Notes: generated from the sequence alone by a model not told the origin. Positions 5,059-50,742 are shown, counted from the first letter of the whole stretch. The stretch is DNA of 64,000 nucleotides, filler included, from Stramenopiles sp. TOSAG23-2 (GCA_900128395.1; 15 parts of 15 records of this genome joined end to end with filler, not necessarily neighbours in it); one strand, 5' to 3'. Program-made: numbers and translations.

Positions 5059-6748
5059 ATGAAACTAATCACATTAATCGTGGTTATTTTATCAATTGCA
5101 TTATCCGTGAATACGTGTCAAGCTGGTGGTGGTGGTAGTAAACCATGGGAATACATCGCTTTATACCACTTAACCGGCCCTAAGATTACTGGCACGACTA
5201 CAACTGGCGACTACACATTCCTTTTTTACAAGCAAAAAGGTGCATATGCTGATAAAACCTTCGACGTAAGCTTTGGCATAAATTCGGTAGAAGGTCAAGA
5301 AGGTATTGAAAAAGCTGAACCAGATGCAGAGAACACAATATGGAAAACAACTCCAACCGTTGTACATGCAAACGACTTTAACACTTTTATGAGTAAGGAT
5401 AAATTATATCAACTAAATTTTAGTGATGCACATGCAGTATCCTCATTTAGGTTTAAGTTTAATAAGACGGAGAGTGCTTCCCCAACAGGCACTGGAACAA
5501 GCTGTGGGGGAGATTGTCATTTCATCTTCTTCTTTCAACATGTCCCATCAGAATTCGATTTGCATTTATTTGATGCGAATGGAAATGAAATTATGCCAGA
5601 GGCAACTGAACCAGCAACAGCAGGAAAAACGAAAAAAAGTCCAATAGTATATGCAAATTACACGGAGAATGGAGGCGAAGCTGTATTTGCTAGTATTCTA
5701 GTTGCGTTCTGTACGTTGTTGGGTATACTTACAGTATTGCCATGTTGTAATGTAGGACCAGAGAAGAAAAACTGCATGGATGGATCCAATTTTTTCATGG
5801 TATTAGCATCTGCATTCGCAGCCGGTACACTTTTCAGTACAACAGTGATGTTGATTTTGCCAGAAGGTGTACGAATGGTAGATGGTGCCATGGGGTGGGA
5901 CAATGAAGCAATGAACAATTTTGTTATTGGTATATGCTTATTTTCCGGTTTCTTTTTAGGTGCTCTTATTGATGTATTTTCCCATTTCATGGGTGGTAAT
6001 CCAGGTGATGCGAATACTTCCTCCGCTGATAAGGAAATTGAAATGCAAAACAAAAATGCAGTCGAAGAAGGAAAAGTTGGTACAAACGACGTTGGCTTAG
6101 AAAAGAAAGGAATGTTTGCAATAACACCACGCAAATGGGGAAGAATTGTAGGAACTATTATTGTTGGTGATTCTATGCATAATTTCATTGATGGTATTGC
6201 AATTGGAGTTGCATTTTTAGGTTGCAATACTACCGGTGGAGTAAGTAAACTCTATTTCCCTCCAGATCTAAAAAAATTATCCTCTCTAACACATCATCAC
6301 TCATTTATATACGCTACGCTCCACACAGTGGATTGTTGCCGGATCAGCAATTTTACATGAAATTCCACAAGAAGTATCAGATTTCTTATTATTAAAACTT
6401 CATGGTAATATGTCGAATTTTGAAGCTTTGCTTACAAATTTCTTATCTGGATTATCATGTATCATTGGTTGCCTTATTGCATTAGATGCAAAACCACAAG
6501 GTATGAGTCAAGGTGTGATTTTATTAATTGCAGCTGGTCAATATTTCTGGATTGCTACTGTTGAATGTTTCCCAAAAATATTACAAGTAAAAACAATGAA
6601 AGAATCATTCATCCATTTAGGTGCATGTTGTTTTGGTGTTTTATTAATATCATTTGTTGTGATGGTTCATGTACATTGCGCTCCTGAAATTATCTCTGGC
6701 GGCGAGGATGTAGCAGCCGCGGATCCACATGCAGGTCATAATCATTAG
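5059..6748 (+). CDS. ZIP-family zinc/metal transporter with a signal peptide and ectodomain; exons 5059-6240 and 6329-6748
   Basis: HNFIDG motif. Removing the GT-AG intron 6241-6328 restores WIVAGSAILHEIPQE in frame with the 6410 ORF. His-rich C-terminus DPHAGHNH. Confidence 0.92.
6241..6328 (+). other. Spliceosomal intron (88 nt, phase 0), member of a repeated introner-like family
   Basis: GTAAGT...CTAAC...CACAG. Splicing restores the ZIP frame. Alignable to introns 34110-34194 and 50312-50406. Confidence 0.9.
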
Positions 6749-7574
6749 ATATTTTCACATCACATGTATTATAATATATTATATTATACATAATGTAAAT
6801 CATTCATTTGTGAACGTTTTTTTTTTAGATGGAAAAGTTTTGCCTATTGTAAAACTTTATATTAAAAAGTACGCACTTGATATAACAAACACAATATTTC
6901 ATTTAGATCTTGTGTAACGTTTTTTTTAAACACAGAAAGGTTCCATGTGTGGTAAAACGTTATGCATACATCATTTTTGGTCGTATGTATATATTAATAG
7001 ATATATAGCTATACACAATTTTAAGACTTCTCATAAAAATATACCCCGGACCGCGTGTATTACGAATTCGTACCATGATACCTCGTAATTATTTTTCAAA
7101 TGTTTAATGGATTATAAAAACGAATATAAAGCAACAAATAATATTGAAGCAAGAAAATTTTATATATTTTATTTAATTTTTATTATAAAATCATATTTTA
7201 AGAGATGCATTTTAGATAAAAACTAAAATATTAGAGTATCATATATTGAATATATATCATATATTTAAATATATTATGATATATGCATCTTTTTAAATTT
7301 TAAGTAAGGAGAATTTTTTATATATTAATGCATATTGTTGCATATCATAATTTTAAAAAAAGTTTTTTATTTTTAGACATGCGCACTATATTTTGTTATT
7401 TAAAAAACGAAAAAAAAACCAAAAACAATGTTGGCAAAATAAAAACGCAATTTAGTATTAATACATTACGAGAATATTTTATTACACTTCTTTCCGCGTA
7501 TTTTTTTAAACACTCTGCGCACATTTATTACATGATAACACTTCTGGTCCAATGTGTGTTTTTTTCAATTTTTC

Positions 7575-8576
7575 CTAATACCCTTTGTCCCAATCAAATA
7601 AATAATTCAATTTACCATCATTCTCATCATCATCATTATCCATCATGTAAATATCTAAATTTTTACAAAAAACATTAGCAACATCATCTCCAAAACTTAA
7701 ACCTGCTATGTGTGGTGTAATTGTAATTTCTTTTCGATTCCATAATTTCGAATGTTCATCTAATGGTTCTTGTTTAAATACATCCAATACACAACCTCCT
7801 AACCAATGGTTATCAAGTGCCTCAATAATTGAATCTTCACTTATAATATCACCTCTTCCAGCATTAATAAATACGGGTGGTGGCATGTTATTATTATTAT
7901 TACATATTGATAATGCTTGATCATCTAATAAACCACTAGTTAAATTTGTACTCGGCAAAATATTTACAATATAATCCGATTTTTCCAACACATCCTCATA
8001 CGTTTGATAAATATGTGCAACATTAGGTACAATTTTTCCATTGCGTTGCCAACCAATTGTTTTAAATCCGATTGTTGTACAAAAATTGGCAATGGATTGT
8101 CCAATATCACCAGAGACTCCAAGAATACCAACTGTAACATTTTTATGGGAACGATATATTGCTTCCTCCGTACTCCAACGTCGTAATAATTGATTTTTTT
8201 TACATATATCGTATTTTCGTTCTATTGCTAATATATGTGTTAAAACATATTGAGCAATTTCATTTCCCATAATACCACCAGCTCTACAAGCAAGATAATC
8301 GTAACGTTTATTTTTTAACAAAGCATCACATCCAGCAAATGTTGACTGTAAAAATTTCAATTTTGGTGTTTCTGATTTATGAATGAAGTTTGACTTTGCA
8401 AAATTAGGTGGATCAGCAACAATTACTTCTGCATTGACAATTTCACCATTAATTATATTTTCCAATGTATTACATGCTATAATATTTATCTTTTTATTAT
8501 CTTTCAACCTATTATATATAGCATTATTTATACCATCTAATGAAGATATTAATGCTACATTTGTTTTTTTAATCAT
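7575..8576 (-). CDS. D-isomer-specific 2-hydroxyacid dehydrogenase (glyoxylate/hydroxypyruvate reductase A-like)
   Basis: GILGVSGDIG Rossmann motif, INAGRG, LDVFKQEPL and ITPHIAG. The first ATG is at 8576. Confidence 0.92.
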   Translation of the reverse strand: MIKKTNVALISSLDGINNAIYNRLKDNKKINIIACNTLENIINGEIVNAEVIVADPPNFAKSNFIHKSETPKLKFLQSTFAGCDALLKNKRYDYLACRAGGIMGNEIAQYVLTHILAIERKYDICKKNQLLRRWSTEEAIYRSHKNVTVGILGVSGDIGQSIANFCTTIGFKTIGWQRNGKIVPNVAHIYQTYEDVLEKSDYIVNILPSTNLTSGLLDDQALSICNNNNNMPPPVFINAGRGDIISEDSIIEALDNHWLGGCVLDVFKQEPLDEHSKLWNRKEITITPHIAGLSFGDDVANVFCKNLDIYMMDNDDDENDGKLNYLFDWDKGY

Positions 8577-8851
8577 TGTTACGTGTAAATACAATTTTTT
8601 TTCTCATAGACTCTCTCTATATATATATAGTTCCCCTTTCTGTTGCATACACTTGCACACACGATGATTAATTATATTGATAATATACTAGTCGTTTAGG
8701 GATGGATGAATTAGGAATATATATATTTCTTATATCTTCTTCACACACATCTCCTCCCAATAGATATAGAACCTCTTATTCATCACGGTGGCACACATGC
8801 GTATATATTAATATACCGTATCCAAAAATTAATAATTTTCTGAATTCTGAA

Positions 8852-11731: not shown

Positions 11732-12823
11732 ATGAGATTAAATAATCTATTATTAACAACAACTACATGTTTATTCATGTTTGTATTAATATTATTTACA
11801 GCAACAAATACATATGCAAAAAAGAAGAAAAAATCTGAAATGTACTTGGTTTTAGATATTGATGGAGAGATTAATTATAAAGCAACTTTTGATTCTTTAA
11901 CTGAAAAAGGATGCCATACCTGTATCAAAGCTGGTTTTGGATGGTCAGAGGAAAAACAACGATGTGGTGGTTTTGAAAATGACAAATGTACAGGTGATAG
12001 TGGCAGCAGCAACGATGATGATGATGATGAAGATTGGGAAGATGAAAGTGACGATCCAGATTTAGAAGGGTATGCAGCACCAGGTAATGATGATGATGAT
12101 GATGATATGACGGATAGTGATGGTGAAATTGATTACGTCAAATTATTTGCAAAATTAACTAAACAAGGCTGTGAAGCATGTGTAAAAAAAGGATATGGAT
12201 GGTCAGAAGAAAAAAGTCGTTGTGGTGGTTTTGCCAACACTAGATGCAATGGAAAAGAAATTGAAATGGAAGAAGAAGAGGACGATGATGAGGAGGAAGT
12301 GAATGCTAATCCTACTTGGAAAGATACGGATACTACGACAAAATTATGGAAATTAATTTCAAGTGCAAATTATGATGGATTAAAAACATTATTGGATGAA
12401 AATCCAAGTTTTGCTAAAGTACGATCTGCAGATGGAAGAGGACCATTATTTTGGGCATATGAATATTCACAACCACGTATGGCATCTTTATTATCATTTA
12501 AAGGTGCAGATACAAAAGCAAAAGATAAACATGGAAAAACACCAAATGGTATTGCTGATACATCTGATGTAATTGATCATGATGCTGGAAATGCTGGGAA
12601 TGATGATGAAGATGAAGATGTTGGTGGCGGAACAGATATGAGTAAAATGTTCAAAGGATTGACAAAGAAAGGATGCAAAGCATGTGTAGCTGCCGGGTAT
12701 GGGTGGTGTCCAATTAAATTAATGTGTGGTGGTTTTGCAAACAGAAAATGCGCAGATGATGTAAGTTCAAATGATGATGATGATGATATGGATGATGATT
12801 TGGAAGGGTATGCAAGTGGTTAG
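11732..12823 (+). CDS. Secreted/ER protein with three Cys-rich repeats, acidic linkers and an ankyrin-like module
   Basis: Signal peptide. LTxxGCxxCxxxGxGW...CGGFxNxxC occurs three times. DGRGPLFWAYEY...GADTKAKDKHGKTP is ankyrin-like. Confidence 0.85.
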   Translation: MRLNNLLLTTTTCLFMFVLILFTATNTYAKKKKKSEMYLVLDIDGEINYKATFDSLTEKGCHTCIKAGFGWSEEKQRCGGFENDKCTGDSGSSNDDDDDEDWEDESDDPDLEGYAAPGNDDDDDDMTDSDGEIDYVKLFAKLTKQGCEACVKKGYGWSEEKSRCGGFANTRCNGKEIEMEEEEDDDEEEVNANPTWKDTDTTTKLWKLISSANYDGLKTLLDENPSFAKVRSADGRGPLFWAYEYSQPRMASLLSFKGADTKAKDKHGKTPNGIADTSDVIDHDAGNAGNDDEDEDVGGGTDMSKMFKGLTKKGCKACVAAGYGWCPIKLMCGGFANRKCADDVSSNDDDDDMDDDLEGYASG

Positions 12824-12979
12824 ATTTGATAATATTTCATCGACTATGTTTGTGCGTGTATGTGTATGTGTGATACAAAGAGTGATACGCATGTGTGTAC
12901 GTTCGTACGAATAAAATATATTTTGGTGTGAGAGAGACGACAGAGCGTATGAAATACTTTTTTTATATATATATATATT

Positions 12980-13384
12980 ATGCTTCAAAATTAAAATTAC
13001 AAAAGTACAAAAGAAGCCATGAAAATGCACGTGCTAACGGTTCTCGCTCTAATGCATCAATAGTTCCATTCGCAGTCGATACGCTAGGAAATTTTTGCTC
13101 TATTGCTATTACCTTCTTAAAAGCAATTGCTAAAACAAAGTTTGCAAAAATCTCGAACAAAGCCGAAGTAAGGGAGCTCGCAGCTTCTAATTGGATTTCT
13201 ACTACGTGTAGAGATATACAAACCGCGATTATTAAGACTTGCGCCTATAATAATCGTTTTGCTTTAAAATGTGCATTTGGTGAGTCGTATAATGAATTGT
13301 ACCCTGGTACAATTTATTCTCCGCCTTCCTATGATGCCCATTTTCCATCAGCTATTATGAGTAGTTGATACTATCTATTTACCT
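12980..13384 (+). mobile_element. 5'-truncated non-LTR retrotransposon 3' end (restriction-like endonuclease domain)
   Basis: KLQKY...IVPFAVDTLG..F.KAIA resembles RLE C-termini. The last 79 bp (13306-13384) recur at 22360-22438. The element starts at a (TA)n tract. Confidence 0.65.
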
Positions 13385-14049: not shown

Positions 14050-17000
14050 TCACGATAAATGAAATGCATCTTTACCATAATTTATTGCCTTTAGTATTTT
14101 TTCTTTCATAACATCTTTTGATTTATAATCAGGTAATTTAAAATAATTTGTACATGTGGAAGCAGATGGTAACGACGACTCTTCCACTCCCAACTCTGAC
14201 ATTGCAGATTCCATTGGTGCCTTTCTAACAACTGTTAAACGGGGTGACAATCCAGCTAACCCTTCATATGGTAAACGTGGAGATCCAGTTACAAAAATTA
14301 AAAAATTTTCTTGTTCCTCTGGGCTAAAATCAGCTAAGATTTCTCGTAAAAGAATTACCGCATTGCTGGTGGAGCTATACCCGTGGTCGTATAATAAATT
14401 ATTATCTAAATCCGTTTTTGTAAATAATGCTTTTGTACCGGAAATAATTATATCCAATTCCTTAGGGCTAAACGAAGCTAGATAAGAAATGTCAATAACA
14501 CCAGATAAACCTTCTGAAATCGATGGAACAACGTTAGATAATGTTTCGCCAATCATTACACGGCAAACACCGGCAACATATTCTTCTAAATTAACAATGG
14601 TAACATCTACTGAATTTCCATTTTTCATAATTTCAACATCCTCGAATCCTGGAACAGTGAAGTCTAGACATAATTGTTCAATTTTTGCACCATCAACATT
14701 TAATTCTTGAATCATAGTGTTTTTTTCTAAAATGCTAAGAGATGTATCGTCTTGTATACGCTTGTAATCTTTAGCAACCCCATGTAACTTGCTCATTTGA
14801 TTACTTAATGCTGGATCAATCAATTTTAAATCTAATAACAATTCATCAATCGATTTTTTATTATTATTTGCATTACCATTACGATAATTGCATATTGATC
14901 GTAAAAGTAAAGGAGAAAAGGATATGGCCAGCAATCTACGATCAACTAGCGCTTGCCCGACAAATCTACCCAACGTTTTATATAATTTACTCCGTCGATC
15001 TGCCTCTAATTCACCAAGATCATCTGTGAAAGGAGATGGATACAATCCTAGTGGAGCAAAACAATATTCACTATCACCGAGACCTTTATTAGTATCAAGC
15101 CATAGAGATAATTTTTTCGAATGGAATTCTTTTGCAACCAAAGTAAAAAATTCCATAGTCGGGCCTTCACCGGTACCAACTTCACCATCAAATTCAACAT
15201 CAATAGTTGTATTTTTATTCTTAATCTTCAAAAACAGGCCTTGTGTTGCCCCTAAGACACCAGTACGCAATACTCTCACTTTAACACGCTCAATGCGAGT
15301 CATCCTTTCTTTTTGAGATGAAGTGATATTTTGACCTCTAGCTTCTGCTTGATTTACCATATATTGCAATGAGCGTTGAGGTGAAAAAGCAGACGAATAA
15401 AAATACTGTCTACGAATTTCAAATGGGAAAAAGAATCTGTAGTTTTGCGTTAAAGCAGAACACCATATTGGTAAACAATTGCTGCATACAGAGAGCGGAT
15501 CTTGCGCTTGGTGTAATAATTTTGATGCAAGCTTACTGTTGTAAAAAATTTCAACATTTAAAACTTGATAATCTTCTTTTTCTACCTTCTTTTCCTTCGC
15601 CTTACTCGTTAGTGCATTGGTATTATTAATAATCGAACCAATATCGTTTTCCTCAATTGCATCACGTAAGATGTGAATAATTTTCATCAATGTAATTAAT
15701 GATGTAATGGTATTATTTCTTCTCGTATGAATTGTCTCATTGAAGCTGCTTCCACTTGAAAATTGGTTTGTAAAACTATAATTATCACCATCCTTCTCGT
15801 AATAATTAGTCAAATTTGACATTGTTAATTCAGATCGCAATGCATGTATTAAGGAATGCTCGAAACGCGACATTGGAGTCAATGCTTTTAACCTGTCATC
15901 CTCTAACATTGCCAAAGACATTTCATCATTGATGTTAACTCCAAAATTGTTATCATCGGGCGTAACTGGTGTTGGCTGCTTTCTTTTAGGTCGTGCACGT
16001 CTAGGAGATACTGGAATGTCTTTACTTTTTGAGCCACTCTTTTTCGAATTAATATTTAAAATAGTTTTTTCTTCTTGGATTTTATAGTACATCACATGAG
16101 GCATATTCCAAATTGCTGGTGTTGGTGGTTTGCAAAATTTTATCATGTTCAAATTAGTGATACCGTGGCTGCTATGTTCCGCCACCATACTATCTTCCGT
16201 TACATATCCTTTCCCGACACCACCACTTTTAGCTACCGCTTCGATTACCGTAGATCCTGGCTGAATTTTATACCCGTTAATGTACAAACAAATATTTTCC
16301 TGTTTGTACTTTTTCTTGACACGATGTCTGGAAGAAGACGACGACGATGATTTCTTTCGATGGTATCTCTTACTGCTGCCATCCGTGAAAGTTGAGGATG
16401 AACCACTGCTATCTCCAACGTCTTTTTCTTCATTATCTCCTCCTTTACTTGATGTCTTTTTTTCCATATTAGAGGATTTTTTCTTATCTACATCATCTCC
16501 ACCATTCTTACTACCGTCGACACTACTGGAACCTTCCCCACTTGATGTTTCCACTTCATTTGTATCTTTTTTTTCTAAACTGGATATTTTCTTCTGTAAG
16601 CTTTCTGTTTGCATTTTTATCATCTTTTGCAGCCGATCGTATGCGCGATCAGCAGAGTCTTCTGATTCATCCATATCCATATCCCCATCTTCATCATTTA
16701 ATCTTTGAAGAAGGAACTCAGTCAAAGCTTTCGTGTTTGCCATTGGCTCTATTAAAATCGTAACACCCTCATCTTGCCAATTTCTTCGTTTCTTTATTTT
16801 TCGCCTATGAGATAATATTTCGGATGCGGACATCTTTCTATTTGATTTAGATTTCTCATCGCTTTCATCAACTTCCTCTTTTAACTTCTTAGTACCGCTT
16901 CCATCTTCGTTATTATTTGCATCTTCCTCACCTGTGTTCTTACTGGTACCAGGCATACGAATTAATTGTATACGTAACGGACTTCCAAGCATTGCTAAGC

Positions 17001-17942
17001 CTTGATCAACTTTGATTTCACCTCGACCATTATGACTCCTCCTATGGCCACCAAATCCACGATGTCTGTACCTAAAACTCATATCTTTTGCACTATTTGA
17101 TTTTGATAAATCTCTCAAATACGTCGGAAATCGTTCACAAGATGCAATTGCCGCTTGAAGACGTTCTATCAAAAAATGTAATGGTATATTTGATGAAGAA
17201 GAAATTCCTTTTTTCATATATTGATTAGTGAAAAATACATTCAAGAATGTTTTTATGCGACATAAACGGTCTTTGAAACGCAGTGTATCCAATTGAGGAG
17301 ATGATGGTGAAGACATGGAGAATGAAGAACTCAAACTGTGTTGCTCCAAAGACGCACGACTGTCGGTACTGTTCGCAGGTGACACCGATGCAGAAATGAC
17401 CTCAAACGAGCGAAGGTTAGTTAAAAAGTTATGCAAGCCATCTATAATCCCACTATTGATTAATTCATGAGTTGATACACTTGCATCTTCCATGAAAATA
17501 TCTTTTAATGCTACTAATATATCAAAATACCGAGATTCGACACTTGCAATTTCATTATTTGAATTAGGACTTGTTGAGTTCACCCGCATACGTTTTGTAC
17601 GCTTTGTCTTTCTCCTTGATCCACTAATTGACTTCTTATTAGTTTCCATATTTGAATTGGCATTGCTATTATTGCTATTCATCCCATTTCCCAACGGAGA
17701 TCTGTTATTCATAAGATTCTGTCTTGGTAAGGGCATCATTTCGGTCATTATACTTTCAATAGATTTTCGTATATCAATTAAACGTTGCATGACCTCGGAA
17801 ACGTTGCGGAAAGTATTTATTTTCTGCACTCCTTCATCAGAATGATCCAAATCTCCCGTTTTCATATTGACATCGCCATCATTAAAATATAAATGCAAAA
17901 ATGAAATTGCAATTGCTTCTACTGTTACCCGTTGATATCTTG
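14050..17942 (-). CDS. UPL3: HECT E3 ubiquitin ligase, UPL3/TRIP12/Ufd4-like, 5'-truncated at the contig edge
   Basis: C-terminal HECT domain (EFDGEVGTGEGPTMEFF; LPSASTCTNYFKLPDY with catalytic Cys). VSTHELINSG and QDPL..C..LP.WC segments are typical of this subfamily. Confidence 0.92.
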
Positions 17943-22538: not shown

Positions 22539-25500
22539 AACCCACCAATAGCTGCACGTTCAAGCAATTCGGTGCACGCTGGTTGCCCTCTCATGGGTGT
22601 CTTGGACGCACCCGATACTGGTACGTCCTATGGCGCTTGGTGTTCAACAGATGCAGGAAAGAGTGATAATAATGTTTACCTCCAATTGGATGCAGGGTCA
22701 ATGGTTGGTATAGGCGGAGCAGTGATAGAAGGCCGTTCGCACGAGACGTATAAAGAATATGTGACTCGATTAAAATTTGCTGTAAGTGATGATGCGGTTA
22801 CATGGATCGAAGTTGATGATGGCAAAATTTTTGATGGTTCTGATGACGAATACAGTAAACAAACAATTACGTTTTCAAAGACCTACATGTCGCGATATAT
22901 TCGATTCATACCCCAANNNNNNNNNNNNNNNNNNNNNNNNNNNNNNNNNNNNNNNNNNNNNNNNNNNNNNNNNNNNNNNNNNNNNNNNNCAGCCATTTTA
23001 ATATGTGGTGAAACATGCATACATCGTGTGTACAACCCAACGTTAGAACAACGTGCATATAGTGACATTGGCAGCAATTGTGGGCTTGGTGTCTTGGGAG
23101 GTGAAGCATGGTGCGAAGACAATAATAATGTAACTCAATTGGACAATTACTTGCAATTAGATTCAGGGTCAATAACGAAACTTAGCGGAGTGGTAATACA
23201 AGGAAAAAGTGGTAGCGATGAACGAGTCACTTCGATAAAAGTTTTAGTGAGTAATGACACGGATACATGGGTGGATGTTGATAATAATGGAGCTATATTT
23301 AATGGCAATACAGATGCAGATTCAGAATTAAAAATATACTTTCCTAAAATTCAAACTGGAAGATTTATAAGGTTTGTGCCACAATCATTTAATGTATGGC
23401 CATCTATGAGGGCTGGAATCCTATTTTGTAGTCAGAAAAGCGTAGTAAGACATCAAATATGTACAAATAAAATTGTGAATCCGACCATTAACTTCCGGCA
23501 GACAAACGGAAATCATGCAGGCTGTACAACATCTGCTTCATTGGGCCTTTCTTTGGGTTATTGTTTGATTGGAAACCCGCAGAGAATGGATATTGAGTTA
23601 ACAAAAAATTCCCAGATCCATGGTATTGCAATCGAAGGTAGAAACAATTCTAATCAGTACGTAAAAAAAATGAAATTTCAAGTTAGCGACGATAATACAA
23701 ATTGGAACGACGTTGATGATGGAAAAATATTTCAAGCAAATATCAACGCAAACCCTGGAAATCGGGTTATTATTTTCTTCACGCGTGCACATTATGGGCG
23801 ATTTTTACGTTTGTTACCAACAGAGTATCTCGAGTATCCAAGTTTAAGGGTTGGCGTCATAAAATGTACACGGGATGATGCATCAGATGACGTTATTGCG
23901 CAGATACCACCACCACCAGATTTAGAGGTAAAAGCGAGTGAAAATCTTGGAAAGGTTTCCAATATTCAAGATTATCATGGGAAAACAATTTGGGAAACAA
24001 ACGGCCCAAGCCCTGAAATTGTTCATGGTAGATATGGTTGGATTTTAGAAGATTATATGGAAAAAACAAGTGGTGCCAATTTATGCTTGAAACAATACCA
24101 CACATTGGCAATGTGGATTTATGTAGATGAGTCATCAGCTACGAATTGGAGGACGGCATTTATAGGTGACAACGCTCACTGGGTTATAATGAAATTTCAT
24201 AGTTCCAGTGAACGGTATGTGTTGGGTTCACATTTGAATGACCACGGAAATTGGTTCAGTGGTAATGTGGAAATGTTAAAAGGACAATGGCAATTAATTG
24301 TTTATGTGGGAGAAGGATCTACGTCTCCACATGGTTACTCCAATGTAGCGCGTACAGGCCAAACAAAAATTTACATCGGAAATCAACAGTTTTCTCCAGT
24401 GCTTGCTTCAACGATTGATAAAGTATCCTCTGGTGATTGTATATATCGTATGGGCTGGCCAGGCCAGTCTCCCGGAACTGTCTCTGAATTTGCAATTTGG
24501 AATCGCGCGTTAACTATCACTCAAATCAAAGCGTACTGGGAACAAACAAGGCATGGCGATACTTTAAATAACGATGTACACCATGTCATAAATTGGGGAT
24601 CCAAATCGAATAATTATTTTTATACAGATGGCATTGTTCATGGTATTGGTGCTGGGCGAGGGAATGATTATGTACCGTATGAAATTCCCCTTGGAACCGA
24701 TGGTTGGTGTGCGACTACCTCTGATGTGCATCAAAATGTCCCAGGTTGTGGCAGAGTGTGTCACAATAAAATAAGTAATTTTCGTGGCGTGAAGNNNNNN
24801 NNNNNNNNNNNNNNNNNNNNNNNNNNNNNNNNNNNNNNNNNNNNNNNNNNNNNNNNNNNNNNNNNNNNNNNNNNNNNNNNNNNNNNNNNNNNNNNNNNNN
24901 NNNNNNNNNTAATTTTCGTGGCGTGAAGAAAGATAGTTTATGGTCAAATACAGTTCCATGCTCTGCATGCCCAGGAGCAAATTGGCCTGGATGCCCAAAA
25001 CAAGATATTTTGCCTACGACAACGTTGTACAACACAGTTGAATACGCTCTTGTATCTACATCGCATGTATGTTCAGGCTATTCATGGGCAACCGATAAAG
25101 CTGGTGCGAATTTAAATGCCAGGCAGCTTGATGGTGGAGGATATGATTACATGGACTGCGTCAGACAGCTAACTTTGAACTTTCCAAACGAATGTTCCAA
25201 AAATTGGTTCATTGTAAACTCTGATAATGGAAATTGTGGCTGTTATCCAAAGAATACAGATTGTTCCATTACCGAACCGACTGCAAGCGGGCGGAGTGAT
25301 AGTTTATATAAACGAGTGTATTGGATTCAAAGGGGATCTTATGAAGAAATCAGTGGAGACCGTGCCATGCGTTTTGGTCCGTATGTAGAAGATGGGAACA
25401 CCAATGCCTATACGGCTGTAGATTGCCAATCTGCATGTAAAAATTGGAATGATATTGCATATACGTACTTCGCAATTCTAGATGGTGGTCATTGTGCATG

Positions 25501-33132: not shown

Positions 33133-33503
33133 TGGCAACTATGTACGAATAAATACACATATTATTGAATTACAAATATTGTTGATATAAATTAATAAAT
33201 ATATCATCTTTAAACTAAAGGAAATATAGATATACACAGAGAGAATTCTCTCTGATATACAAGAGCACAATTCCATAATATAGGCATACCAGTATAAAGA
33301 ACACATTTATTCCTTTTCTAATTTGTTCTTCTTTCCATATATTACCTTTAATTAAATTTCTGTGTTGATTTAATAAGTATACTGTATATATATATATATA
33401 TATATATTTATACAAAAGGAAATAGATATTAATATACTGTAAACAGCACAATTCCCCAATAAAAAGAACATATTATAAAAAATTCATAATAATAATAATA
33501 ATA

Positions 33504-34398
33504 ATGAAAATAAGTTATACGTGTATCGTAATAATAGCAATGACTATTTTAGTCGTGCAACCAATATCAAGTGAAACAGTAACATTAAGATATTTTGATA
33601 TAAGAGGATTAGCAGAACCAATCAGACTTGCATTGAGTTATTTAAATATTGACTATGAGGAGGTAAAATATGCAAGATGTGCACCGGATTGTAAAAATGG
33701 CTTAACAGATTGGACTGAAGCGAAAAAAGTTGGAACCGAAAGTGGTTTGTTTGCATTTTCACAAGTACCATCATTGACATATGGCGAGACTAGTTTAGTT
33801 CAAAGTGAAGCCATATTAAGATTTTTAGCGCGTAAACATGGTATTGCTGGAGAAACTGAAATCGAACAGCAACGAATTGATTTGTTTGTCGGTGGTTTAA
33901 AAGATATGCGTAGTAAATATGGAAAAATGGTATATAACAAGAAAGCATTGACAGATCCAAAAATTATGAGCGATTATCTTGATGTTCAACGAACTTGGTT
34001 ACCATTTTTTGAGCGATTACTTGTAAAATCATCAGTTGATGGTCCATACGTCGCCGGAGCACATGTTACGTTTTCTGATTTTATTGCCTTTGATATGATT
34101 GATAGTAATGTAAGTAAATTTCTATTCTCCTCGTAACCCTAAAAAGGATATCCTTTTCTAACACATCAAATCGTTCATACGCTATGCTCCACAGATGCGT
34201 ATTGAAGCCAATGCATTTGATGACTTACCATTGTTACGAGGATTAGCTACTAAGATTAGTCAAATGGATGGTGTTGCAAAATATTTACAATCAAATAAAC
34301 GAAGAAAAAGAGCAAATGGTGCTTCAGCAACGTTTGATAATCCAACAAATCCGCCAAACTTTATTCCAGATTGGGATGCTGGTAAAAGAGATTTGTAA
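33504..34398 (+). CDS. Glutathione S-transferase (Tyr-type, sigma/pi/mu-like) with a signal peptide; exons 33504-34109 and 34195-34398
   Basis: LRYFDIRGLAEPIRL, FSQVPSL, LVQSEAILRFLARKHG and VTFSDF motifs. A phase-0 intron joins the two ORFs. Confidence 0.92.
34110..34194 (+). other. Spliceosomal intron (85 nt, phase 0), introner-like family member
   Basis: GTAAGT...CTAAC...CCACAG, colinear with intron 6241-6328 over its whole length. Confidence 0.9.
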
Positions 34399-36363: not shown

Positions 36364-37968
36364 TTAAGTTTTATTGAATCTAGAAAAAAATCCCCGCTTT
36401 TTCTTCTTCACTGGTTGACCATCTTTCCACATTCCATCATGATAGATCGAACCATCTGCATTAGTGAATTTACCTTTTCCATTTCTCTTACCATCTTTAT
36501 ATTCACCAACATATACATCACCATTAGTCCATGTATATGTACCTGTTCCATGCATCTTATCATCTTTATATTCACCATCATATACATCACCACTAGCATA
36601 TGTATATGTACCTTTTCCATTTCTCTTATCATCTTTAAAGTCACCAACATATACAGCACCATTAGTCCATGTATATCTACCTGTTCCATGCATCTTATCA
36701 TCTTTATATTCACCATCATATACATCACCACTAGCATATGTATATGTACCTTTTCCATTTCTCTTATCATCTTTCCAATCACCATCATATACATCACCTT
36801 TATTCGATCCACTATTCCATGTAAATGTACCTTTTCCATGTGATTTACCATCTTTAAAGTCACCAACATATACATTACCACTAGCATATGTATATGTACC
36901 ATTTCCATTGTATTTATCATTTTGCCATTCACCATCATATACAGCACCACTAGCATATGTCATTGTACCTTTTCCATGCCGTTTACCATCTTTCATTAGA
37001 CCTTCATATACTTTACCATCGTCATACTTCTTTGTTACAGCTGTAATTATAGGTCTCAATGGTCCAATACTATAACTTGTATAGTTCTTCACACCAGCAA
37101 GACAAGGTTTAGCTTTTCCTTGCGTTGCTAACGTACTCGAGACTGCATCAAATAAACTTAAAGGTTGAATAAATAACACTTCATCATTTTTCTTTTCATC
37201 AACCATTTTAGTTACCTCATCAACAAGGCAATGTGTAAAATCACTTGTTCCAGGTGCTGTTTCTGTTGCGCGAGCTGCAGTCATAATAAGTTTACCAGAA
37301 GAATTACAAATTTCTTCCATTTTTCGATTAAATGATTCCGTACCAGCTTTTATCATTCTATTGTTACCAGATTTAACAATTCCATTTCTTCTATTTGTTT
37401 CGCTGTTGCTATTACTATTATTATTATTGTTATTGCTATTTTGTTCTCTTATACTTTTCACTGTATCATTATAATTTTGATGTCCATCGATTTGTGATTT
37501 TGGCTTTGTATCAAACGTATCAAAACTACCAGAATAACACGCATCAAGAAATATGATTACGCGATCTGTACTAACTTCACTTATTAGTGCATTCATTTCT
37601 GTATACTTTAAATATGTATTATGTGCACAACAAAATTGAAAGTTATTATTTTTTACTTCACCGTGTCCTGAGTAATATATAATTAATGAGTCAAGTGAGG
37701 TAATTTTATTTTGTAGTACATTTTGAAAGACAACTTTAATTTTATCGGCAGTTGCACATGGAATTTGTTTCGTATAAGATTTGTCATAATTCAATTTATC
37801 TCTGAATAAATCATGCATTTTATTGACGTCTGCTTCCCACAAATCAGCATGTGGATCGCCACCACCAATACATACTGAATAAAATTTACCTTGATTGTTT
37901 ATATATTCTTCAGATTCTACTCTTTGCAATGGAGGTTGGTTGCTTTTCGAGGAGGGTTTGTTTCCCAT
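36364..37968 (-). CDS. Caspase-like (peptidase C14) protein with a C-terminal MORN repeat array and an N-myristoylation motif
   Basis: YYSGHG and FLDACYSG catalytic dyad motifs. About eight YxGxxKDxKxxGxGxYxxxxG repeats. N-terminus MGNKPSS. Confidence 0.9.
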   Translation of the reverse strand: MGNKPSSKSNQPPLQRVESEEYINNQGKFYSVCIGGGDPHADLWEADVNKMHDLFRDKLNYDKSYTKQIPCATADKIKVVFQNVLQNKITSLDSLIIYYSGHGEVKNNNFQFCCAHNTYLKYTEMNALISEVSTDRVIIFLDACYSGSFDTFDTKPKSQIDGHQNYNDTVKSIREQNSNNNNNNSNSNSETNRRNGIVKSGNNRMIKAGTESFNRKMEEICNSSGKLIMTAARATETAPGTSDFTHCLVDEVTKMVDEKKNDEVLFIQPLSLFDAVSSTLATQGKAKPCLAGVKNYTSYSIGPLRPIITAVTKKYDDGKVYEGLMKDGKRHGKGTMTYASGAVYDGEWQNDKYNGNGTYTYASGNVYVGDFKDGKSHGKGTFTWNSGSNKGDVYDGDWKDDKRNGKGTYTYASGDVYDGEYKDDKMHGTGRYTWTNGAVYVGDFKDDKRNGKGTYTYASGDVYDGEYKDDKMHGTGTYTWTNGDVYVGEYKDGKRNGKGKFTNADGSIYHDGMWKDGQPVKKKKRGFFSRFNKT

Positions 37969-40411: not shown

Positions 40412-40566
40412 NNNNNNNNNNNNNNNNNNNNNNNNNNNNNNNNNNNNNNNNNNNNTTAATTAATTAANNNNNNNNNNNNNNNNNNNNNNNNNNNNNNNNN
40501 NNNNNNNNNNNAAAATGGGGCTGTAATGCAATGATAATACTAATACACCATCACTATCATGTAATT

Positions 40567-41911
40567 GGTTTGTACGTATATTCTTGTTCTTCTTTTTGTT
40601 GTTGTTTGGTAGTATTGTTATTCTCGTTTGACGATGTTGTTGTTGTTGTGGTGGTGGTGGTGGAGGTTGATGAAGATGGTGGCGGTGGTGGTACGATGTT
40701 TGTTGCTAGTGCTAATGGTGATGATAATTTCAAGACAGGTATGGAATTATTATTAAAAGACCCTGCGTTGTTGTTGCTATTATTATTATTATTATTTGAC
40801 GAAGTTGGTGATGATGCTGGTGCAATAATTGGTGATATCATTGATGTTAATGAATTATTATTACGTGTATTGTATTTCATATTCATACCTTTCTTTGTCA
40901 TATCATCACCATCATCATTATCTACATCCATCGCTTTTGGTTTCTTTGATTTTTTCATATCATTATTATTCTTTGGTTTTAAATGTATATCTGGTTCTTC
41001 ATTTGTAAATATATCATCCATACCATCATCTTCAATACCATTGTATTTAATCGGTTCAATTTGACAATTTATATTTAATGATTTTGCAAATTCCTTTTTT
41101 GTTGGTAAATTTAAATCCACTGTACCGATTAATGAACCATTTTTTGTGAAAAATATAAAACGTTCTTCAAAATGTATACCACAACCAACTACATCACCGG
41201 TGCTATATTTTCTTTGTTCTATTGATTTTTTATTATTGTTACTACTATTTGGAAATAATGATCCATTATTGTTATTGTCCTCGTCATCATCATCATCATC
41301 ATCATGAAACCATTTATCTCCATTTACATAAAATTGTCCTTCATTACCATTATATCCATATGATCCTATGTATATTATTATTATATATTGTTTAATGTGA
41401 CAGTGAATATATTGTTGTTAGTATTCGTGTAGACTTGATATAGTTGCAAATGTATATATAAATATATGTTGATGGCACATATTGTGGATATTGCTTTATA
41501 CAAATACTTACCCTTTGTCATACCAATATTTTGATTTAATTTTGCATCTTTATCAACATATCCAATGGATATATCACCATTTGTACCAGCATTTAATATT
41601 TTGACTTCAAAATAATTAAATTGATATTCAACAGGTATTGGTTCAATCGTTCTTGCGCCACCTGCATCGTGTGTATGATTTGCACGTCCATAATATTGTA
41701 AGGTTAAACCATTTTTTTGTATTCTAGCAAAAACTGGATGTGAGAAACCTAACGTTGTATTCATAGTTGGTTTACTTGGTAATGGTTCAATATCATCATC
41801 ATTATTATATATTATGTTATTGTCGTAGCTGTTGTTATTATTATTGTTATTGTTATCGTCTTCTTTACGTTCATCGTCATCATGAGAAGTGGTAGACATC
41901 ATACTTGCCAT
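40567..41911 (-). CDS. SPRY-domain protein (RanBP9/10, SSH4-like); exons 41911-41512 and 41365-40567; 3' end lost at a chimeric junction
   Basis: YFEVKIL..G....ISIG. After removing intron 41366-41511 the frame reads GSYGYNGNEG and YSTGDVVGCGI...IFFTKNG. Confidence 0.88.
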
Positions 41912-43590: not shown

Positions 43591-44455
43591 ATGGATAATA
43601 ATAATAATAATAATAACAATAAATTTATACAACCATTAGCAATCAATAAAAAAAATAGTAACGACAACAAAAACAACGACAACAATAAAAAGCGTAAATT
43701 ATCCGATACAGAGCAACAACAACAACAACAACAACAATGCCCTGCACCTCCACAATGTATCTTAAATTTACAATCATTACCATTTGGTAAACATAATTTT
43801 ACAAAATTCTTTTTATTATCACCAAATATTACTTTTCTTAATCATGGTTCATTTGGTGCAACAGCAAAAGTCGTCTTAGCAAAACAACGTAAATTAGTAA
43901 ATACATTAGAATCGCATCCGGATCAATGGTTTCGACGTAATGTACAAACTGAAATACGTAATAGTGCGAAAATATTAGCAAATTTTATCGGTGCAGATGA
44001 AAATGATTTAGTATTTGTACAAAATGCAACGACTGGTATTAATAGTGTTTTACGTTCATTGGAATTACATGATAGTGATGGTGTATTAGTATTATCATTG
44101 CATTACAGCCCCATTTTAACAACATTACGTAGAACATGTGAATATAAACAAGAAATTATTGATTTAAAAGAATTAAACGTTAGTAATAAATTGCCATTAC
44201 CAACATCAAGTGAATTGATTGAATTAGTAGAACAAAATTTAATAGCAAATCCACATATAAAAATTGCTATATTTGATCATATTACATCACCAACTTCATT
44301 AATTTTACCAGTGAAGAAATTAGTAGAAATATGTCATAAATATGATGTACGTGTATTGATTGATGGTGCACATGCATGTGGGCAAATACCATTAAATTTA
44401 AATGATATCAATTGTGATTATTATGTTGGTATGTATCATTTTGTTTATCTATCTA

Positions 44456-44488
<33 letters not shown>

Positions 44489-44825
44489 TAAGTTAAAACT
44501 AACAATATCTTACTACGTATATTATTAGGTACCTGTCATAAATGGTTGTTTTCATGTAAAGGTTCTGCATTTTTATGGGCAAAACAAGAAGTACAAAATA
44601 TTTTATCACCATTGGTTACGGTACAATGGGATGCTGATTTTATTAATAATTTCTTACGACAAGGTACAAGGGATGAGACTGCATTTATATGTGCCGGTGT
44701 TGCAGTGAATTTTTATCAACATATTGGTTTTGAGCGTTTACGTAAACGTAATAGTGAAATGGTTATTAAAATGGCATTGACATTAGCAAAAATGTGGAAT
44801 ACAGAAATTTTAGCACCAAAAAGTA
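43591..44825 (+). CDS. Class-V PLP enzyme (L-cysteine desulfhydrase / isopenicillin-N epimerase / Egt2-like); exons 43591-44428 and 44529-44825; 3'-truncated
   Basis: FLNHGSFG, NATTGIN, FDHITSPT and LIDGAH motifs. Removing intron 44429-44528 restores GTCHKWLF (PLP lysine). A second intron starts at 44826. Confidence 0.9.
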
Positions 44826-44835
44826 GTAAGTTTGT

Positions 44836-44891
<56 letters not shown>

Positions 44892-49111: not shown

Positions 49112-49463
49112 ATGACTATTATATAGAAATGGTGAAATAAATTGAATTTTGAATTAAAATAAAAATAGAAAAATATAGAAACTATATATATTAGTAGTAC
49201 AGTATATATATACATTGAAAAATAGTATATATATATATATATATATAAATAATAAAAGAATGGCATCATCATCATCAAACAAGAAAGCATGTACGACATT
49301 GTCGTCCCTTACGGAAGAAGATAATACTATATTGGAACGTCTATTTGAAAAATATGGAAAATGNNNNNNNNNNNNNNNNNNNNNNNNNNNNNNNNNNNNN
49401 NNNNNNNTTAATTAATTAANNNNNNNNNNNNNNNNNNNNNNNNNNNNNNNNNNNNNNNNNNNN

Positions 49464-50742
49464 CCAGAAGGTATAAATTTTATATTTGCAATTGTTGAAA
49501 TCGCATTGTATACTTTTCCATATTTTTTAATATTAAAAACAAAAAAACAAAATGAATTTCAAGTTGACGATAGTGAGGAAAATGTCGACAATGGGGCAAT
49601 AAACAACAATAACAAGATTGGGGAACTAATTGCTCTTGATGGAAAAAAAGAGGAAGATGATGAGGATGGAATACAAGGCAACATTACTGAAGAGAAAGAT
49701 ACTGCTGATGTTGAATCTTCTAATTCTGATGATAATAATAATGATAATGAAAATATAATAAATTCACGTACGGTTCAATCATCAATGTAAAAAAAGAGGA
49801 AGATGATGAGGATGGAATACAAGGCAACATTACTGAAGAGAAAGATACTGCTGATGTTGAATCTTCTAATTCTGATGATAATAATAATGATAATGAAAAT
49901 ATAATAAATTCACGTACGGTTCAATCTTCAATGTACAATGTTTCCTTTTTTGAAGCGTTAGGTATGATTGAATTTTGGTGCTTATTTTTTATATTTTTTG
50001 GGGGAACTGGCGCAGCGTATATGACAATTAATAATCTTGCACAAATTAATTATTCTTTAGGTGGAACTTTAGTGAAAAAAAATTATCTAGTTATTTTGGT
50101 TGGTGTTTTCAATTGTATTGGACGAATTGTTATGGGTAACATCCAAGATGTTGTTGGTTCAAAATATGGCATTACACGTCCATTATTATGTTTAGTTGCT
50201 ATACTATGTGTTGGGGTTTCCCAAATTATTTTAGCATGGACAGATAATACTCCTGTTGGCGTATCATTGATGGCTTTTGGCTTTGGTAGCACATGGTGTT
50301 TGATCGGGCCTGTAAGTAACAACATTGTAGTATTATTAAAAACTATAAAACCTCTCTCTAACAATATACATCACTTATTCATATACTATATGTATGCTCC
50401 ACACAGGTTACTAGTGATATTGTCGGTCAAAAAGCATACGGTAAAATTTTCTCTGCTGTTAGCATGTCTGCAATGTTGAGTACAACAATATTCAATTCCG
50501 TCATTGCAGGTCCAGCATATGATCTTGCATATAGTGCTCAACCTGAAAATGAAACGAAAACATGTTGTGGGGGAGAATGCTACTTATCAGCACATATCAT
50601 TGCCGCGATGGTATCATTTGTAGTATCACTTGCACCTATCATCTTGTATTTTAGAACACGAAAATTTTATACATTTTTTTTTGCACAAAATAAATACCAA
50701 GATAGAAAACCAACTTTGTACAAACCATTAATTGAGCCATAA
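49464..50742 (+). CDS. MFS transporter (nodulin-like/NFD4/Mch1-like), 5'-truncated; intron 50312-50406; frame broken by a 146-bp duplication
   Basis: EFWCLFFIFFGGTG...INNLAQI...FNCIGRI..G...D. After splicing it reads VTSDIVGQKAYG. C-terminal CCGGECY. Confidence 0.85.
50312..50406 (+). other. Spliceosomal intron (95 nt, phase 0), diverged introner-like family member
   Basis: GTAAGTAA...cctctctctaaca...catcacttattcatatac...tatgctccacacag. Splicing joins ORFs 49931 and 50464 in frame. Confidence 0.88.

What the first reader, a model, noticed from the sequence alone, without database searches (positions are those of the whole stretch)
6241..50406. Introner-like family: three related introns in three unrelated genes
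Seen: the introns of the ZIP transporter (6241-6328), the GST (34110-34194) and the MFS transporter (50312-50406) lie on different contigs. All are phase 0 and 85-95 nt long, and they share far more than the splice consensus. The ZIP and GST introns are colinear end to end (gtaagtaaa-tctatt-cctc-taaaaa-atcctYtctaacacatca-atacgctaYgctccac(ac)ag). The MFS intron shares the start and the 3' half (cctctct..aaca..catcact.att.atatac..ta.gctccacacag). The other complete introns here (SPRY, class-V lyase, two in NFS1) are unrelated AT/microsatellite-rich sequences. Established: introner elements that create introns en masse are known in Micromonas, Aureococcus and some fungi. Inference: 3 of the 7 complete introns I could define are related, which suggests a large, moderately old intron-generating element family in this lineage. 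I see no consistent target-site duplication or terminal inverted repeat (TGGA flanks only the ZIP copy), so the mechanism is open.
Basis: partly seen in the sequence, partly recalled or inferred. Interest (0 to 1): 0.88.

Follow-up and report, generated by a model that had tools for sequence, protein, structure and literature searches.

The report
Self-copying 80-base intron family confirmed
Three short introns in unrelated genes of a marine protist belong to a large family of near-identical, roughly 80-base elements that each form a complete intron, a new example of the known way in which introns multiply through a genome.

Summary
The ZIP (6241-6328) and GST (34110-34194) introns are full-length members of a repeated family of about 79 nt, and the MFS intron (50312-50406) keeps only the 3' half. 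One motif scan of public metagenome contigs returned 76 loci. 66 of them carry the element, at 57 different places. With neighbouring copies and the window's MFS intron this makes 65 unique insertion sites in unrelated genes.

Every copy is a whole intron with its own 5' splice site, branch site and 3' end. At 63 of 65 sites the sense-strand reading frames are the longer ones, and at 55 of 65 both flanks are open for 40 codons or more. All three phases are used. I found no target-site duplication, no terminal inverted repeat, no predicted RNA structure and no intergenic copy.

Poly-A RNA contigs of two runs join 6240 to 6329 exactly, and the one DNA run laid does not. The host is probably a stramenopile.

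I favour RNA-level, seamless insertion (reverse splicing), but this is inferred. A DNA-level mechanism without duplications is nearly as likely.

I file it as a new member of a known kind. It may already be listed in supplements I could not open.

Two extras were seen: insertion sites are enriched for ATGG, and one copy sits in a GC-rich, virus-like primase gene.

The parts
6241..6328 (+). ZIP-transporter intron. It is a full-length copy of the ~79-nt intron family (88 nt, phase 0) with a GTAAGTAAA 5' end, a TCTAACA branch site and a GCTCCACACAG 3' end.
   Evidence: Family profile E 2.2e-14, model positions 1-78. 72 of 88 aligned columns are identical to the consensus. RNA contigs of runs X15 and X16 join 6240 to 6329 (skip 88, GT..AG), and there is no such joint in DNA run X5. 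Relatives align across the junction without gap or insertion.
34110..34194 (+). GST intron. It is a full-length copy of the same family (85 nt, phase 0).
   Evidence: Family profile E 3e-15, model positions 1-79. 72 of 85 columns are identical to the consensus. The same intron stands in metagenome locus L028, 83 of 85 identical. The flanking exons continue the GST fold. Splicing was not tested with RNA.
50312..50406 (+). MFS/NFD4-like transporter intron (95 nt, phase 0). It is a decayed family copy: only 50352-50403 (branch site to 3' end) still matches, and the 5' half has diverged apart from GTAAGTAA.
   Evidence: Family profile E 0.0049, model positions 38-78. 62 of 98 columns are identical to the consensus. 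In the masked shuffle test the 3' segment gives z = 7.0 against ZIP and 4.0 against GST, while the 5' segment is not similar. Splicing was not tested with RNA.
5059..6240 (+). ZIP transporter, exon before the intron.
   Evidence: Pfam Zip profile 6-198; alignment with relatives P0130-P0137.
6329..6745 (+). ZIP transporter, exon after the intron. It starts WIVAGSAILHEIPQE.
   Evidence: Pfam Zip profile 212-321; alignment A2.
33426..34109 (+). GST, open frame before the intron.
   Evidence: Pfam GST_N and GST_C_3; mu-class GST residues 2-165.
34195..34392 (+). GST, open frame after the intron.
   Evidence: Weak match to alpha-class GST residues 171-211, E 0.09; 67 open codons.
49751..50311 (+). 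MFS/NFD4-like gene, open frame before the intron.
   Evidence: Pfam NFD4_C profile 14-103, below the curated cut-off (24.5 against 27 bits).
50407..50742 (+). MFS/NFD4-like gene, open frame after the intron.
   Evidence: Pfam NFD4_C profile 143-214, 29.1 bits.

Best explanation
The three introns are copies of one mobile intron family (an introner) of a marine protist that is probably a stramenopile. ZIP and GST are full-length copies. MFS is an old copy whose 5' half has decayed.

Each element is about 79-85 nt long, G-poor and predicted to be unstructured. It is a complete spliceosomal intron in itself: it brings its own GTAAGTAAA 5' splice site, YTCTAACA branch site and GCTCCACAG 3' end. A new copy can therefore be spliced out at once and leaves the mRNA unchanged.

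Copies enter coding regions of unrelated genes seamlessly, without duplicating the target, in the sense orientation and in any codon phase. They land preferentially within about 5 nt of an ATGG.

The route I think most likely is at the RNA level. An excised intron is reverse-spliced into another transcript, the product is reverse-transcribed, and the copy is recombined into the gene.

Shown: the family, its anatomy, its sense-only genic location, the lack of TSD and TIR, the ATGG bias, and splicing of the ZIP copy. Inferred: mobility itself, since no empty site in the same species was seen, and the RNA route.

My odds: about 0.95 that this is a true introner family; about 0.5 for the RNA route, against about 0.4 for a DNA-level mechanism without duplications.
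For: Family:
- 66 of 76 metagenome loci returned by one motif scan hold the element, at 57 distinct places. With neighbouring copies and the window's MFS intron there are 65 unique sites.
- Median identity to the consensus is 0.86 and pairwise identity 0.78. This is biased upward by the motif scan.
- Controls: 0 of 2 viral-contig matches, 0 of 2 prokaryote-genome matches (596 Gb) and 0 of the 10 remaining metagenome matches resemble the family.
- Host genes are unrelated: ZIP, GST, NFD4-like, desaturase with cytochrome b5, polycystin, Band 7, cNMP-binding proteins, ion channel, class-3 GPCR, D-lactate dehydrogenase.

Whole-intron unit:
- Similarity runs from the first to the last intron base.
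- 55 of 65 sites have at least 40 open codons on both sides.
- The phase counts for 0, 1 and 2 are 22, 16 and 27 (chi-square p 0.25).
- In the two testable cases the insertion is seamless. ZIP relatives align across the junction with no gap. The L047 gene and its uninterrupted homologue P0124 have the same number of residues across the site.

Splicing: joint 6240 to 6329, skip 88, GT..AG, in one contig each of poly-A RNA runs X15 and X16 (both from one study). It is absent from DNA run X5.

Support for the RNA route:
- At 63 of 65 sites the sense-strand frames are the longer ones.
- No copy lies outside an open frame, although only 78.5% of the 404,009 bases of family-bearing loci lie in frames of 100 codons or more. 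The window has intergenic stretches of about 800 nt.
- No direct repeat at any offset for k = 3-6 against permuted pairings.
- 5 of 20 terminal bases are complementary, so there is no TIR.
Against: - No empty site (intron-less allele) was found: 0 spanning hits among the loci held. These loci were all selected for having the element.
- ZIP relatives at 71-74% identity are uninterrupted, but they may come from RNA assemblies.
- Reverse splicing would be expected to favour exon-junction-like (AG|G) sites. None is seen, and the ATGG bias is not predicted by it.
- No reverse transcriptase source was looked for.
- Sense-only genic copies could also result from selection after DNA-level insertion in a compact genome.
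- All copies outside the window were found with a pattern that demands intact splice signals. 12 neighbouring copies were found without that pattern, and they too lie in sense orientation in frames.
- Splicing was shown for one copy only, and in RNA contigs about 96% identical to the window, so they come from a close relative.
- The taxon rests on one conserved protein.
Confidence: 0.5

Rival explanations
1. The same introner family, but it moves as DNA. It would be a non-autonomous element using a mechanism that leaves no target-site duplication or terminal inverted repeat (Helitron- or Crypton-like, or still unknown). Selection would then remove every copy that is not a sense-oriented, spliceable insertion in a gene.
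For: - Most introner families surveyed are consistent with DNA transposition, and families without TSD or TIR exist outside fungi (PMC9860276, sections 7-8). Families of unknown mechanism are reported, for example in Parmales (PMC12130899, passage).
- A sequence preference at the target (ATGG within about 5 nt: 20 of 65 sites against 4.4 expected) is typical of transposases or recombinases.
- One copy sits in a GC-rich, virus-like gene.
Against: - No non-genic or antisense copy was found among 65 sites, although about 21% of the loci and about 38% of the window lie outside long frames.
- Both ends of the element coincide exactly with the splice sites, and the insertions are seamless.
- There are no terminal repeats and no duplication.
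- No longer relative of the element was seen in 517,660 bases.
Confidence: 0.4
2. There is no mobility. The shared sequence would be a lineage-wide, extended splice-signal consensus, or a functional RNA embedded in introns and kept alike by selection or gene conversion.
For: - The best-conserved blocks are the 5' splice site, the branch site and the 3' end.
- The ZIP intron seems at least as conserved as its exons between two relatives. The read-through translation is identical in P0130 and P0131, which are 95% and 88% identical to the window's exon.
Against: - 6 of the 9 candidate introns in the same window lack the sequence and use AACTAACA or TACTAACA branch sites and other 3' ends.
- Similarity covers non-signal positions end to end at 65 sites.
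- The consensus has no predicted structure (MFE 0.0 against -2.9 +/- 1.9 for shuffles).
- There is no Rfam match in the three loci searched of the 66 that hold copies (6,210 bases).
- An AT-rich copy lies inside a 57% GC gene whose homologues are uninterrupted there.
Confidence: 0.03
3. The similarity comes from gene duplication (paralogous genes that carry one ancestral intron) or from an assembly artefact such as adapter sequence.
For: Nine pairs of loci share flanks. The source is a fragmented draft assembly made of 4.4-kb contigs.
Against: - The nine pairs are the same locus from different samples and were collapsed. The remaining flanks share no similarity, and the host proteins belong to different Pfam families.
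- The element occurs in contigs under many different record prefixes.
- It is removed exactly at GT..AG in RNA.
Confidence: 0.02

Closest known systems
Ascomycete introner-like elements / 'direct insertion' introners (van der Burgt et al. 2012 as cited in PMC11282704 and PMC3609843; Alternaria example in Fig. 2A legend of PMC9860276)
   Same: The repeated unit is the whole intron and carries all splice signals. There is no TSD and no TIR. Copies are strongly biased to genes, insertion is seamless, and copies decay until they look like ordinary introns, as the MFS copy here does.
   Different: - The host is a marine protist whose NFS1 is closest to stramenopile proteins, not a fungus.
- The element is short (mode 79-85 nt) and not longer than the other introns of the window (55-245 nt).
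- It has no predicted secondary structure, whereas fungal elements are described as longer than regular introns and stably folded (abstract of PMC3609843, seen in the listing).
- It shows an ATGG-proximal insertion bias. I saw no mention of such a bias in what I read.
MITE-like introners of Micromonas pusilla and Aureococcus (Huff et al. 2016, as summarised in PMC11282704, and PMC9860276)
   Same: A marine picoeukaryote host; many near-identical short introns in unrelated genes; the element supplies splice signals.
   Different: Those families have 3-9 bp TSDs and TIRs, and they recruit one splice site from the duplication. Here TSD and TIR were tested and are absent, and both splice sites lie inside the conserved element.
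Introner families of unknown mechanism in marine stramenopiles, such as the dominant family of Parmales sp. 'scaly parma' (passage of PMC12130899), and families found in 520 partial aquatic genomes (PMC9860276 section 6)
   Same: A marine stramenopile-type host, a single dominant family and an unresolved mechanism.
   Different: I could not compare sequences.
Introners carried by double-stranded DNA viruses (title and abstract start of PMC12166617 in the listing; abstract of PMC12130899, seen)
   Same: One copy (L047) interrupts a gene with a weak match to a phage-family DNA primase, in a contig of foreign base composition.
   Different: The viral nature of L047 is not established. There is no Pfam hit and no relative in the viral contig collection, and only 3.4 kb is available.

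Membership tests
Introners (operational definition of PMC9860276, Methods passage: at least four introns of similar sequence, with similarity reaching both splice boundaries, not explained by paralogy or artefact) | At least four introns with similarity that extends to near both splice boundaries | tested here: met
   65 unique sites. The profile aligns from model position 1 to 78 or 79 in most copies.
Introners (operational definition of PMC9860276) | Host genes are not recent paralogues, and the similarity stops at the exon boundary | tested here: met
   The flanks of different sites share no similarity, apart from 9 same-locus pairs that were collapsed. Pfam families differ between hosts.
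Introners (operational definition of PMC9860276) | The copies are real, spliced introns | tested here: met
   The ZIP copy is removed exactly in RNA contigs of 2 runs. 55 of 65 sites have at least 40 open codons on both sides in one phase. RNA was examined for one copy only.
Introners (operational definition of PMC9860276) | Evidence of gain: the site is empty in relatives or in other individuals | tested here: inconclusive
   - Homologues of the L047 gene at 43-50% identity are uninterrupted at the site.
- ZIP relatives at 71-74% identity are uninterrupted, but they may derive from RNA.
- No empty allele was found among the loci held.
MITE-like / DNA-transposon introners | Target-site duplication flanking the element | tested here: not met
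   No offset pair for k = 3-6 exceeds permuted pairings in 65 sites.
MITE-like / DNA-transposon introners | Terminal inverted repeats | tested here: not met
   5 of 20 terminal bases of the consensus are complementary.
MITE-like / DNA-transposon introners | Copies in both orientations and outside genes | tested here: not met
   At 63 of 65 sites the sense-strand frames are the longer ones; the other 2 are near ties. No copy lies outside an open frame, while 21.5% of the family-bearing loci lie outside frames of 100 codons or more. The sample is biased towards contigs that carry a spliceable copy.
Ascomycete introner-like elements | Whole-intron unit without TSD or TIR, gene-restricted | tested here: met
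Ascomycete introner-like elements | Longer than regular introns and with stable predicted secondary structure | tested here: not met
   The length mode is 79-85 nt against 55-245 nt for the other window introns. MFE is 0.0 kcal/mol against -2.9 +/- 1.9 for shuffles.
Ascomycete introner-like elements | Fungal (Pezizomycotina) host and sequence homology to those families | tested here: not met
   The closest named NFS1 proteins are from Hondaea (78%) and oomycetes (74-77%). This rests on one gene, and its tree is poorly resolved. Sequence homology to the fungal elements could not be tested because no fungal element was at hand.
Group II-like retrohoming (target recognised by intron-exon base pairing) | Complementarity between the insertion site and the element | tested here: not met
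   The longest pairing run at insertion sites averages 5.89 against 5.98 at control positions (p 0.58).
Known structured RNA families (intronic snoRNA and the like) | Match to an Rfam model, or a stable fold | tested here: not met
   No Rfam match at E up to 1 in the three loci searched of the 66 that hold copies. The consensus is predicted to be unstructured.

The most novel reading that the evidence does not exclude
This would be an RNA-propagated introner outside the fungi: a minimal, unstructured 79-nt 'pure intron' that spreads by reverse splicing into transcripts. It would have a so far undescribed preference for sites next to ATGG, and it would also have entered a transcribed gene of a GC-rich, virus-like element in the same nucleus. 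The host is abundant in public marine DNA and RNA data sets, which would make it a natural system for catching intron transposition and possible virus-borne transfer in the act.
Probability: 0.3. Interest if true: 0.8.

Novelty: new member of a known kind. Interest (0 to 1): 0.6.

Why it matters
How new spliceosomal introns arise is an old open question. Introners are the only known process that makes them in bulk.

Most described families look like DNA transposons. The class without duplications or inverted repeats is reported as an outlier largely confined to ascomycete fungi (PMC9860276 section 8), and its mechanism is unproven. This family belongs to that class by anatomy, but it lives in a marine protist that occurs in many public metagenomes and poly-A metatranscriptomes.

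Three tests that are hard in fungi could therefore be run on existing data:
- empty-site polymorphisms among natural strains;
- intron RNA intermediates;
- whether insertion frequency follows transcript abundance.

The element is very small, which also makes it a compact statement of what this spliceosome needs to recognise an intron.

On the practical side, about a third of the introns in this window come from the family (3 of 9 candidates). Gene prediction in this lineage can use the profile directly.

Tried and rejected
- **Whole-genome search.** No genome is held for this window, so all-against-all intron clustering of the source assembly could not be done.
- **Three-copy profile on the window.** It found nothing beyond the three introns themselves; the next hit had E = 4.2. 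The short motifs alone are not enriched in the window.
- **Laying RNA on GST and MFS together.** Run X17 had no cover at the ZIP intron, which says nothing either way.
- **Empty alleles among fetched loci.** 0 spanning hits. This is uninformative because all the loci were selected for the element.
- **Exon-intron complementarity as a target guide.** Rejected.
- **Protosplice-site (AG|G) preference.** Not seen.
- **U12-type intron.** I considered this because the GST copy contains ATATCCTT, and rejected it by eye. That motif lies mid-intron beside the branch site, and the 5' end is GTAAGT. The U12 consensus is recalled, not tested.
- **Taxon.**
  - The protein atlas gave only 'Eukaryota' for a GPN-loop GTPase.
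  - The NFS1 tree is poorly resolved, with animals nested inside.
  - A search of papers for the accession prefixes of three named contig sets found nothing.
  - MAST genome papers gave no intron or GC figures in the passages searched.
- **L047.** No Pfam family at E up to 0.01 for the primase-like frame or the two other long frames; the 116-aa end fragment gave only a weak AAA_10 match (E 0.0079, below the cut-off). No relative in the viral contigs.
- **High depths at 7181-7476.** These lie in an AT-rich intergenic stretch and were not interpreted.

Full report
**What the window is**

The 64,000 bases are 15 contigs of about 4.4 kb (the last is cut at 1,150 bases). GC runs from 28 to 39%. The contigs are joined by N44-TTAATTAATTAA-N44 spacers. 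No whole genome is held for the window. Open frames are long and carry poly-Asn runs, and there are few introns.

The ZIP gene region occurs in 20 of 24 listed public runs from 13 studies. Most are marine metagenomes, and six are RNA libraries. The closest named relatives of the window's NFS1 are Hondaea (78% identity) and oomycetes (74-77%), while unnamed environmental proteins reach 88-96%. A quick tree did not resolve the position. I therefore call the host 'probably a stramenopile' and no more.

**The observation**

They are 88, 85 and 95 nt long, and each joins two open frames in phase 0.
- The Pfam Zip profile runs to position 198 before the ZIP intron and resumes at 212 after it.
- GST exon 1 matches mu-class GST residues 2-165. 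Exon 2 matches alpha-class residues 171-211 weakly.
- The NFD4_C profile is split at 103 and 143.

I masked the first 8 nt, the branch site and the last 3 nt, then compared the remaining segments with shuffles.
- The branch-to-3' segments are far more alike than shuffles in all three pairs: z = 6.7, 7.0 and 4.0, with 0, 0 and 4 of 2000 shuffles reaching the observed score.
- The 5' segments are alike only between ZIP and GST: z = 2.4, 48 of 2000.

An ORF-continuity scan gives six further candidate introns in the window: 12761-13005, 44429-44528 and 53499-53553 on the + strand, and 55890-55687, 55532-55440 and 41511-41366 on the - strand. These are not RNA-verified.
- They are unrelated to the three: local scores 12-38, against 58 for ZIP-GST and 44 for ZIP-MFS.
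- Five of them show a CTAAC branch site preceded by AA or TA. The three family introns have CT or TT in that place.

**The family**

The window alone holds no further copy. I therefore scanned public collections with one pattern made of the shared 5' end, branch site and 3' block.
- Viral contigs gave 2 matches, both in ordinary coding sequence.
- 596 Gb of prokaryote genomes gave 2 matches, neither resembling the family.
- Metagenome contigs gave 76 matches.

Of the 76 metagenome loci, 66 hold an end-to-end relative of the ZIP and GST introns. The 10 others are chance matches with no profile hit. After collapsing nine same-locus pairs there are 57 distinct places, with a 79-nt majority consensus.

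A profile built from these found 80 hits at E up to 1e-3 in the 517,660 bases held. 78 were in the 66 loci, and 12 of those 78 were neighbouring copies that the strict pattern had missed. Because none of the 12 neighbouring copies fits the pattern, the pattern sees only a minority of the family. The true number of sites in the collection must be several times 57; this is inference.

In the window the profile matches GST (E 3e-15, full length), ZIP (E 2.2e-14, full length) and the 3' half of MFS (E 0.005). The next hit has E = 1.2. The profile includes L028 and L034, which are the GST and ZIP loci of close relatives.

Identity to the consensus is 72 of 88 aligned columns (ZIP), 72 of 85 (GST) and 62 of 98 (MFS). 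The family median is 0.86, which the pattern biases upward. The window thus holds two middle-aged copies and one old, half-decayed copy.

**Anatomy**

With refined boundaries there are 75 copies at 65 unique sites. This count includes the window's MFS intron, which I added by hand.
- Lengths run from 64 to 108 nt, mostly 79-85.
- The similarity begins at the first intron base and ends at the last.
- 55 of 65 sites have at least 40 open codons on both sides in one consistent phase. Phases 0, 1 and 2 occur 22, 16 and 27 times (p 0.25).
- At 63 of 65 sites the sense-strand frames are the longer ones, and the other two are near ties.
- No copy lies outside a frame. Only 78.5% of the 404,009 bases of family-bearing loci, and 62% of the window, lie in frames of 100 codons or more. 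The window also has intergenic stretches of about 800 nt.
- No direct repeat links the two junctions at any offset for k = 3-6.
- The termini are not inverted repeats: 5 of 20 bases are complementary.
- The consensus has only 6 G in 79 bases. It has no predicted structure: 0.0 kcal/mol against -2.9 +/- 1.9 for shuffles.
- Rfam has no match in the three copy-bearing loci searched.

Host genes are unrelated to one another. One gene, for a secreted protein with repeated DGGKTW motifs, carries four copies within about 1 kb, two of them 29 nt apart.

**Splicing and seamlessness**

Contigs of two poly-A RNA runs from one study join 6240 to 6329. They skip exactly 88 bases with GT..AG ends; one of the contigs has 102 bases on the shorter side. 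The DNA metagenome that was laid shows no such joint. The RNA contigs differ from the window by a few percent, so they come from a close relative.

ZIP relatives align through ...GG|WIVAGSAILHE... with no gap. Two genomic relatives (95% and 88% identical) read through into the same intron.

Relatives at 71-74% identity are uninterrupted. Their contigs could come from RNA assemblies, so I do not count them as empty sites.

**How it most likely works**

Shown: a repeated unit that is a complete intron, and that inserts seamlessly, in sense orientation, in coding sequence, in any phase, without duplication.

Inferred: how it moves.
- These features are what reverse splicing of an excised intron into another transcript predicts, when followed by reverse transcription and recombination. 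That is the route proposed for the fungal elements (PMC9860276 section 8).
- They are also compatible with an unknown DNA-level mechanism followed by selection.
- Against the RNA route, there is no AG|G-like site preference.
- Instead, ATG occurs within -4..+1 of the insertion point at 30 of 65 sites, against 11.9 expected from other positions of the same frames (p 2.5e-7). ATGG occurs at 20 of 65 against 4.4 expected (p 5e-9).
- Pairing between the site and the element does not explain this bias.

I put the RNA route at about 0.5 and a DNA route at about 0.4.

**A copy in a foreign-looking gene**

L047 is a 3.4-kb contig of 57% GC. It carries a 75-nt AT-rich family copy in phase 2 inside a P-loop frame. 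That frame has no Pfam family and a weak match to a phage-family DNA primase (E 1.7e-5).

Homologues at 43-50% identity, about 476 residues long, run uninterrupted across the site with the same residue count. Two closer relatives (99% and 85%) stop at about 313 residues, as expected if they carry the intron. No relative was found in the viral contigs.

This is the best evidence here for insertion into a pre-existing frame. It is also a lead towards virus-borne or mobile-element-borne introners, a theme of recent papers: the abstract of PMC12130899, and the title and abstract start of PMC12166617 in the listing.

**Comparison with what is known**

Introners are known from about 200 species and more than 1,000 families (abstract of PMC12130899). 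Most carry TSDs or TIRs, and ascomycete families are the stated outlier without them (PMC9860276 sections 7-8).

By anatomy the present family belongs with the outlier class. It differs in host, in being short, and in being unstructured.

I found no paper that holds both 'introner' and 'MAST-4'; among the papers listed for the terms 'introner', 'marine' and 'stramenopile' (which required only 2 of the 3) I saw none on such a family. However, PMC9860276 screened 520 partial aquatic genomes (section 6).

**Verdict**

It is a new member of a known kind. It has two features that merit follow-up: the ATGG bias and the copy in a virus-like gene. Interest 0.6.

Noticed in passing
window 4417-4516 and every ~4.5 kb after it; also 22917-22989 and 24795-24909: The window is 15 contigs in descending length order, joined by N44-TTAATTAATTAA-N44 spacers. 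There are two further internal N runs inside one contig. Features must not be read across the spacers.
   Followed up: yes
L047 2937-3011 (contig Ga0070752_1020430): A 75-nt AT-rich family copy interrupts, in phase 2 and seamlessly, a P-loop gene in a 57% GC contig. The gene has a weak match to a phage-family DNA primase. Homologues at 43-50% identity are uninterrupted at the site. It may be a virus or a mobile element of the same host.
   Followed up: partly
exon flanks of the 65 family insertion sites (loci L003-L078 and the window): ATG and ATGG are enriched within about 5 nt of the insertion point (30 of 65 sites against 11.9 expected; 20 of 65 against 4.4 expected). The offsets vary, and pairing to the element does not explain it.
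   Followed up: partly
L011 557-1524 (minus strand): Four family copies lie within about 1 kb of one gene for a secreted protein with repeated DGGKTW motifs. Two copies are separated by an exon of only 29 nt, and one copy has a degenerate GTAAAA 5' end.
   Followed up: partly
window 12761-13005, 44429-44528, 53499-53553 (+); 55890-55687, 55532-55440, 41511-41366 (-): The six non-family candidate introns are rich in (TA)n, (CA)n or (GAT)n runs. Five of them show a CTAAC branch site preceded by AA or TA, whereas family copies have YTCTAACA. The boundaries come from ORF continuity only.
   Followed up: partly
proteins P0130 and P0131 (relatives of window 5059-6240): The read-through translation of the ZIP intron is identical in two relatives whose exons are 95% and 88% identical to the window. 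The intron may evolve more slowly than the coding sequence around it.
   Followed up: no
window 6750-7580: An AT-rich intergenic stretch of about 830 nt lies between the ZIP gene and a convergent gene. It shows very high summed contig depth in one DNA run and two RNA runs, probably from low-complexity matches of other organisms.
   Followed up: partly
window 36364-37968 (-), 14050-17942 (-), 40557-41417 (-): By eye from the translations (recalled motifs, no search run), there is a MORN-repeat protein and a large protein with a HECT-like C-terminus. Several proteins have long poly-Asn or poly-Asp runs, which fits an AT-rich protist genome.
   Followed up: no
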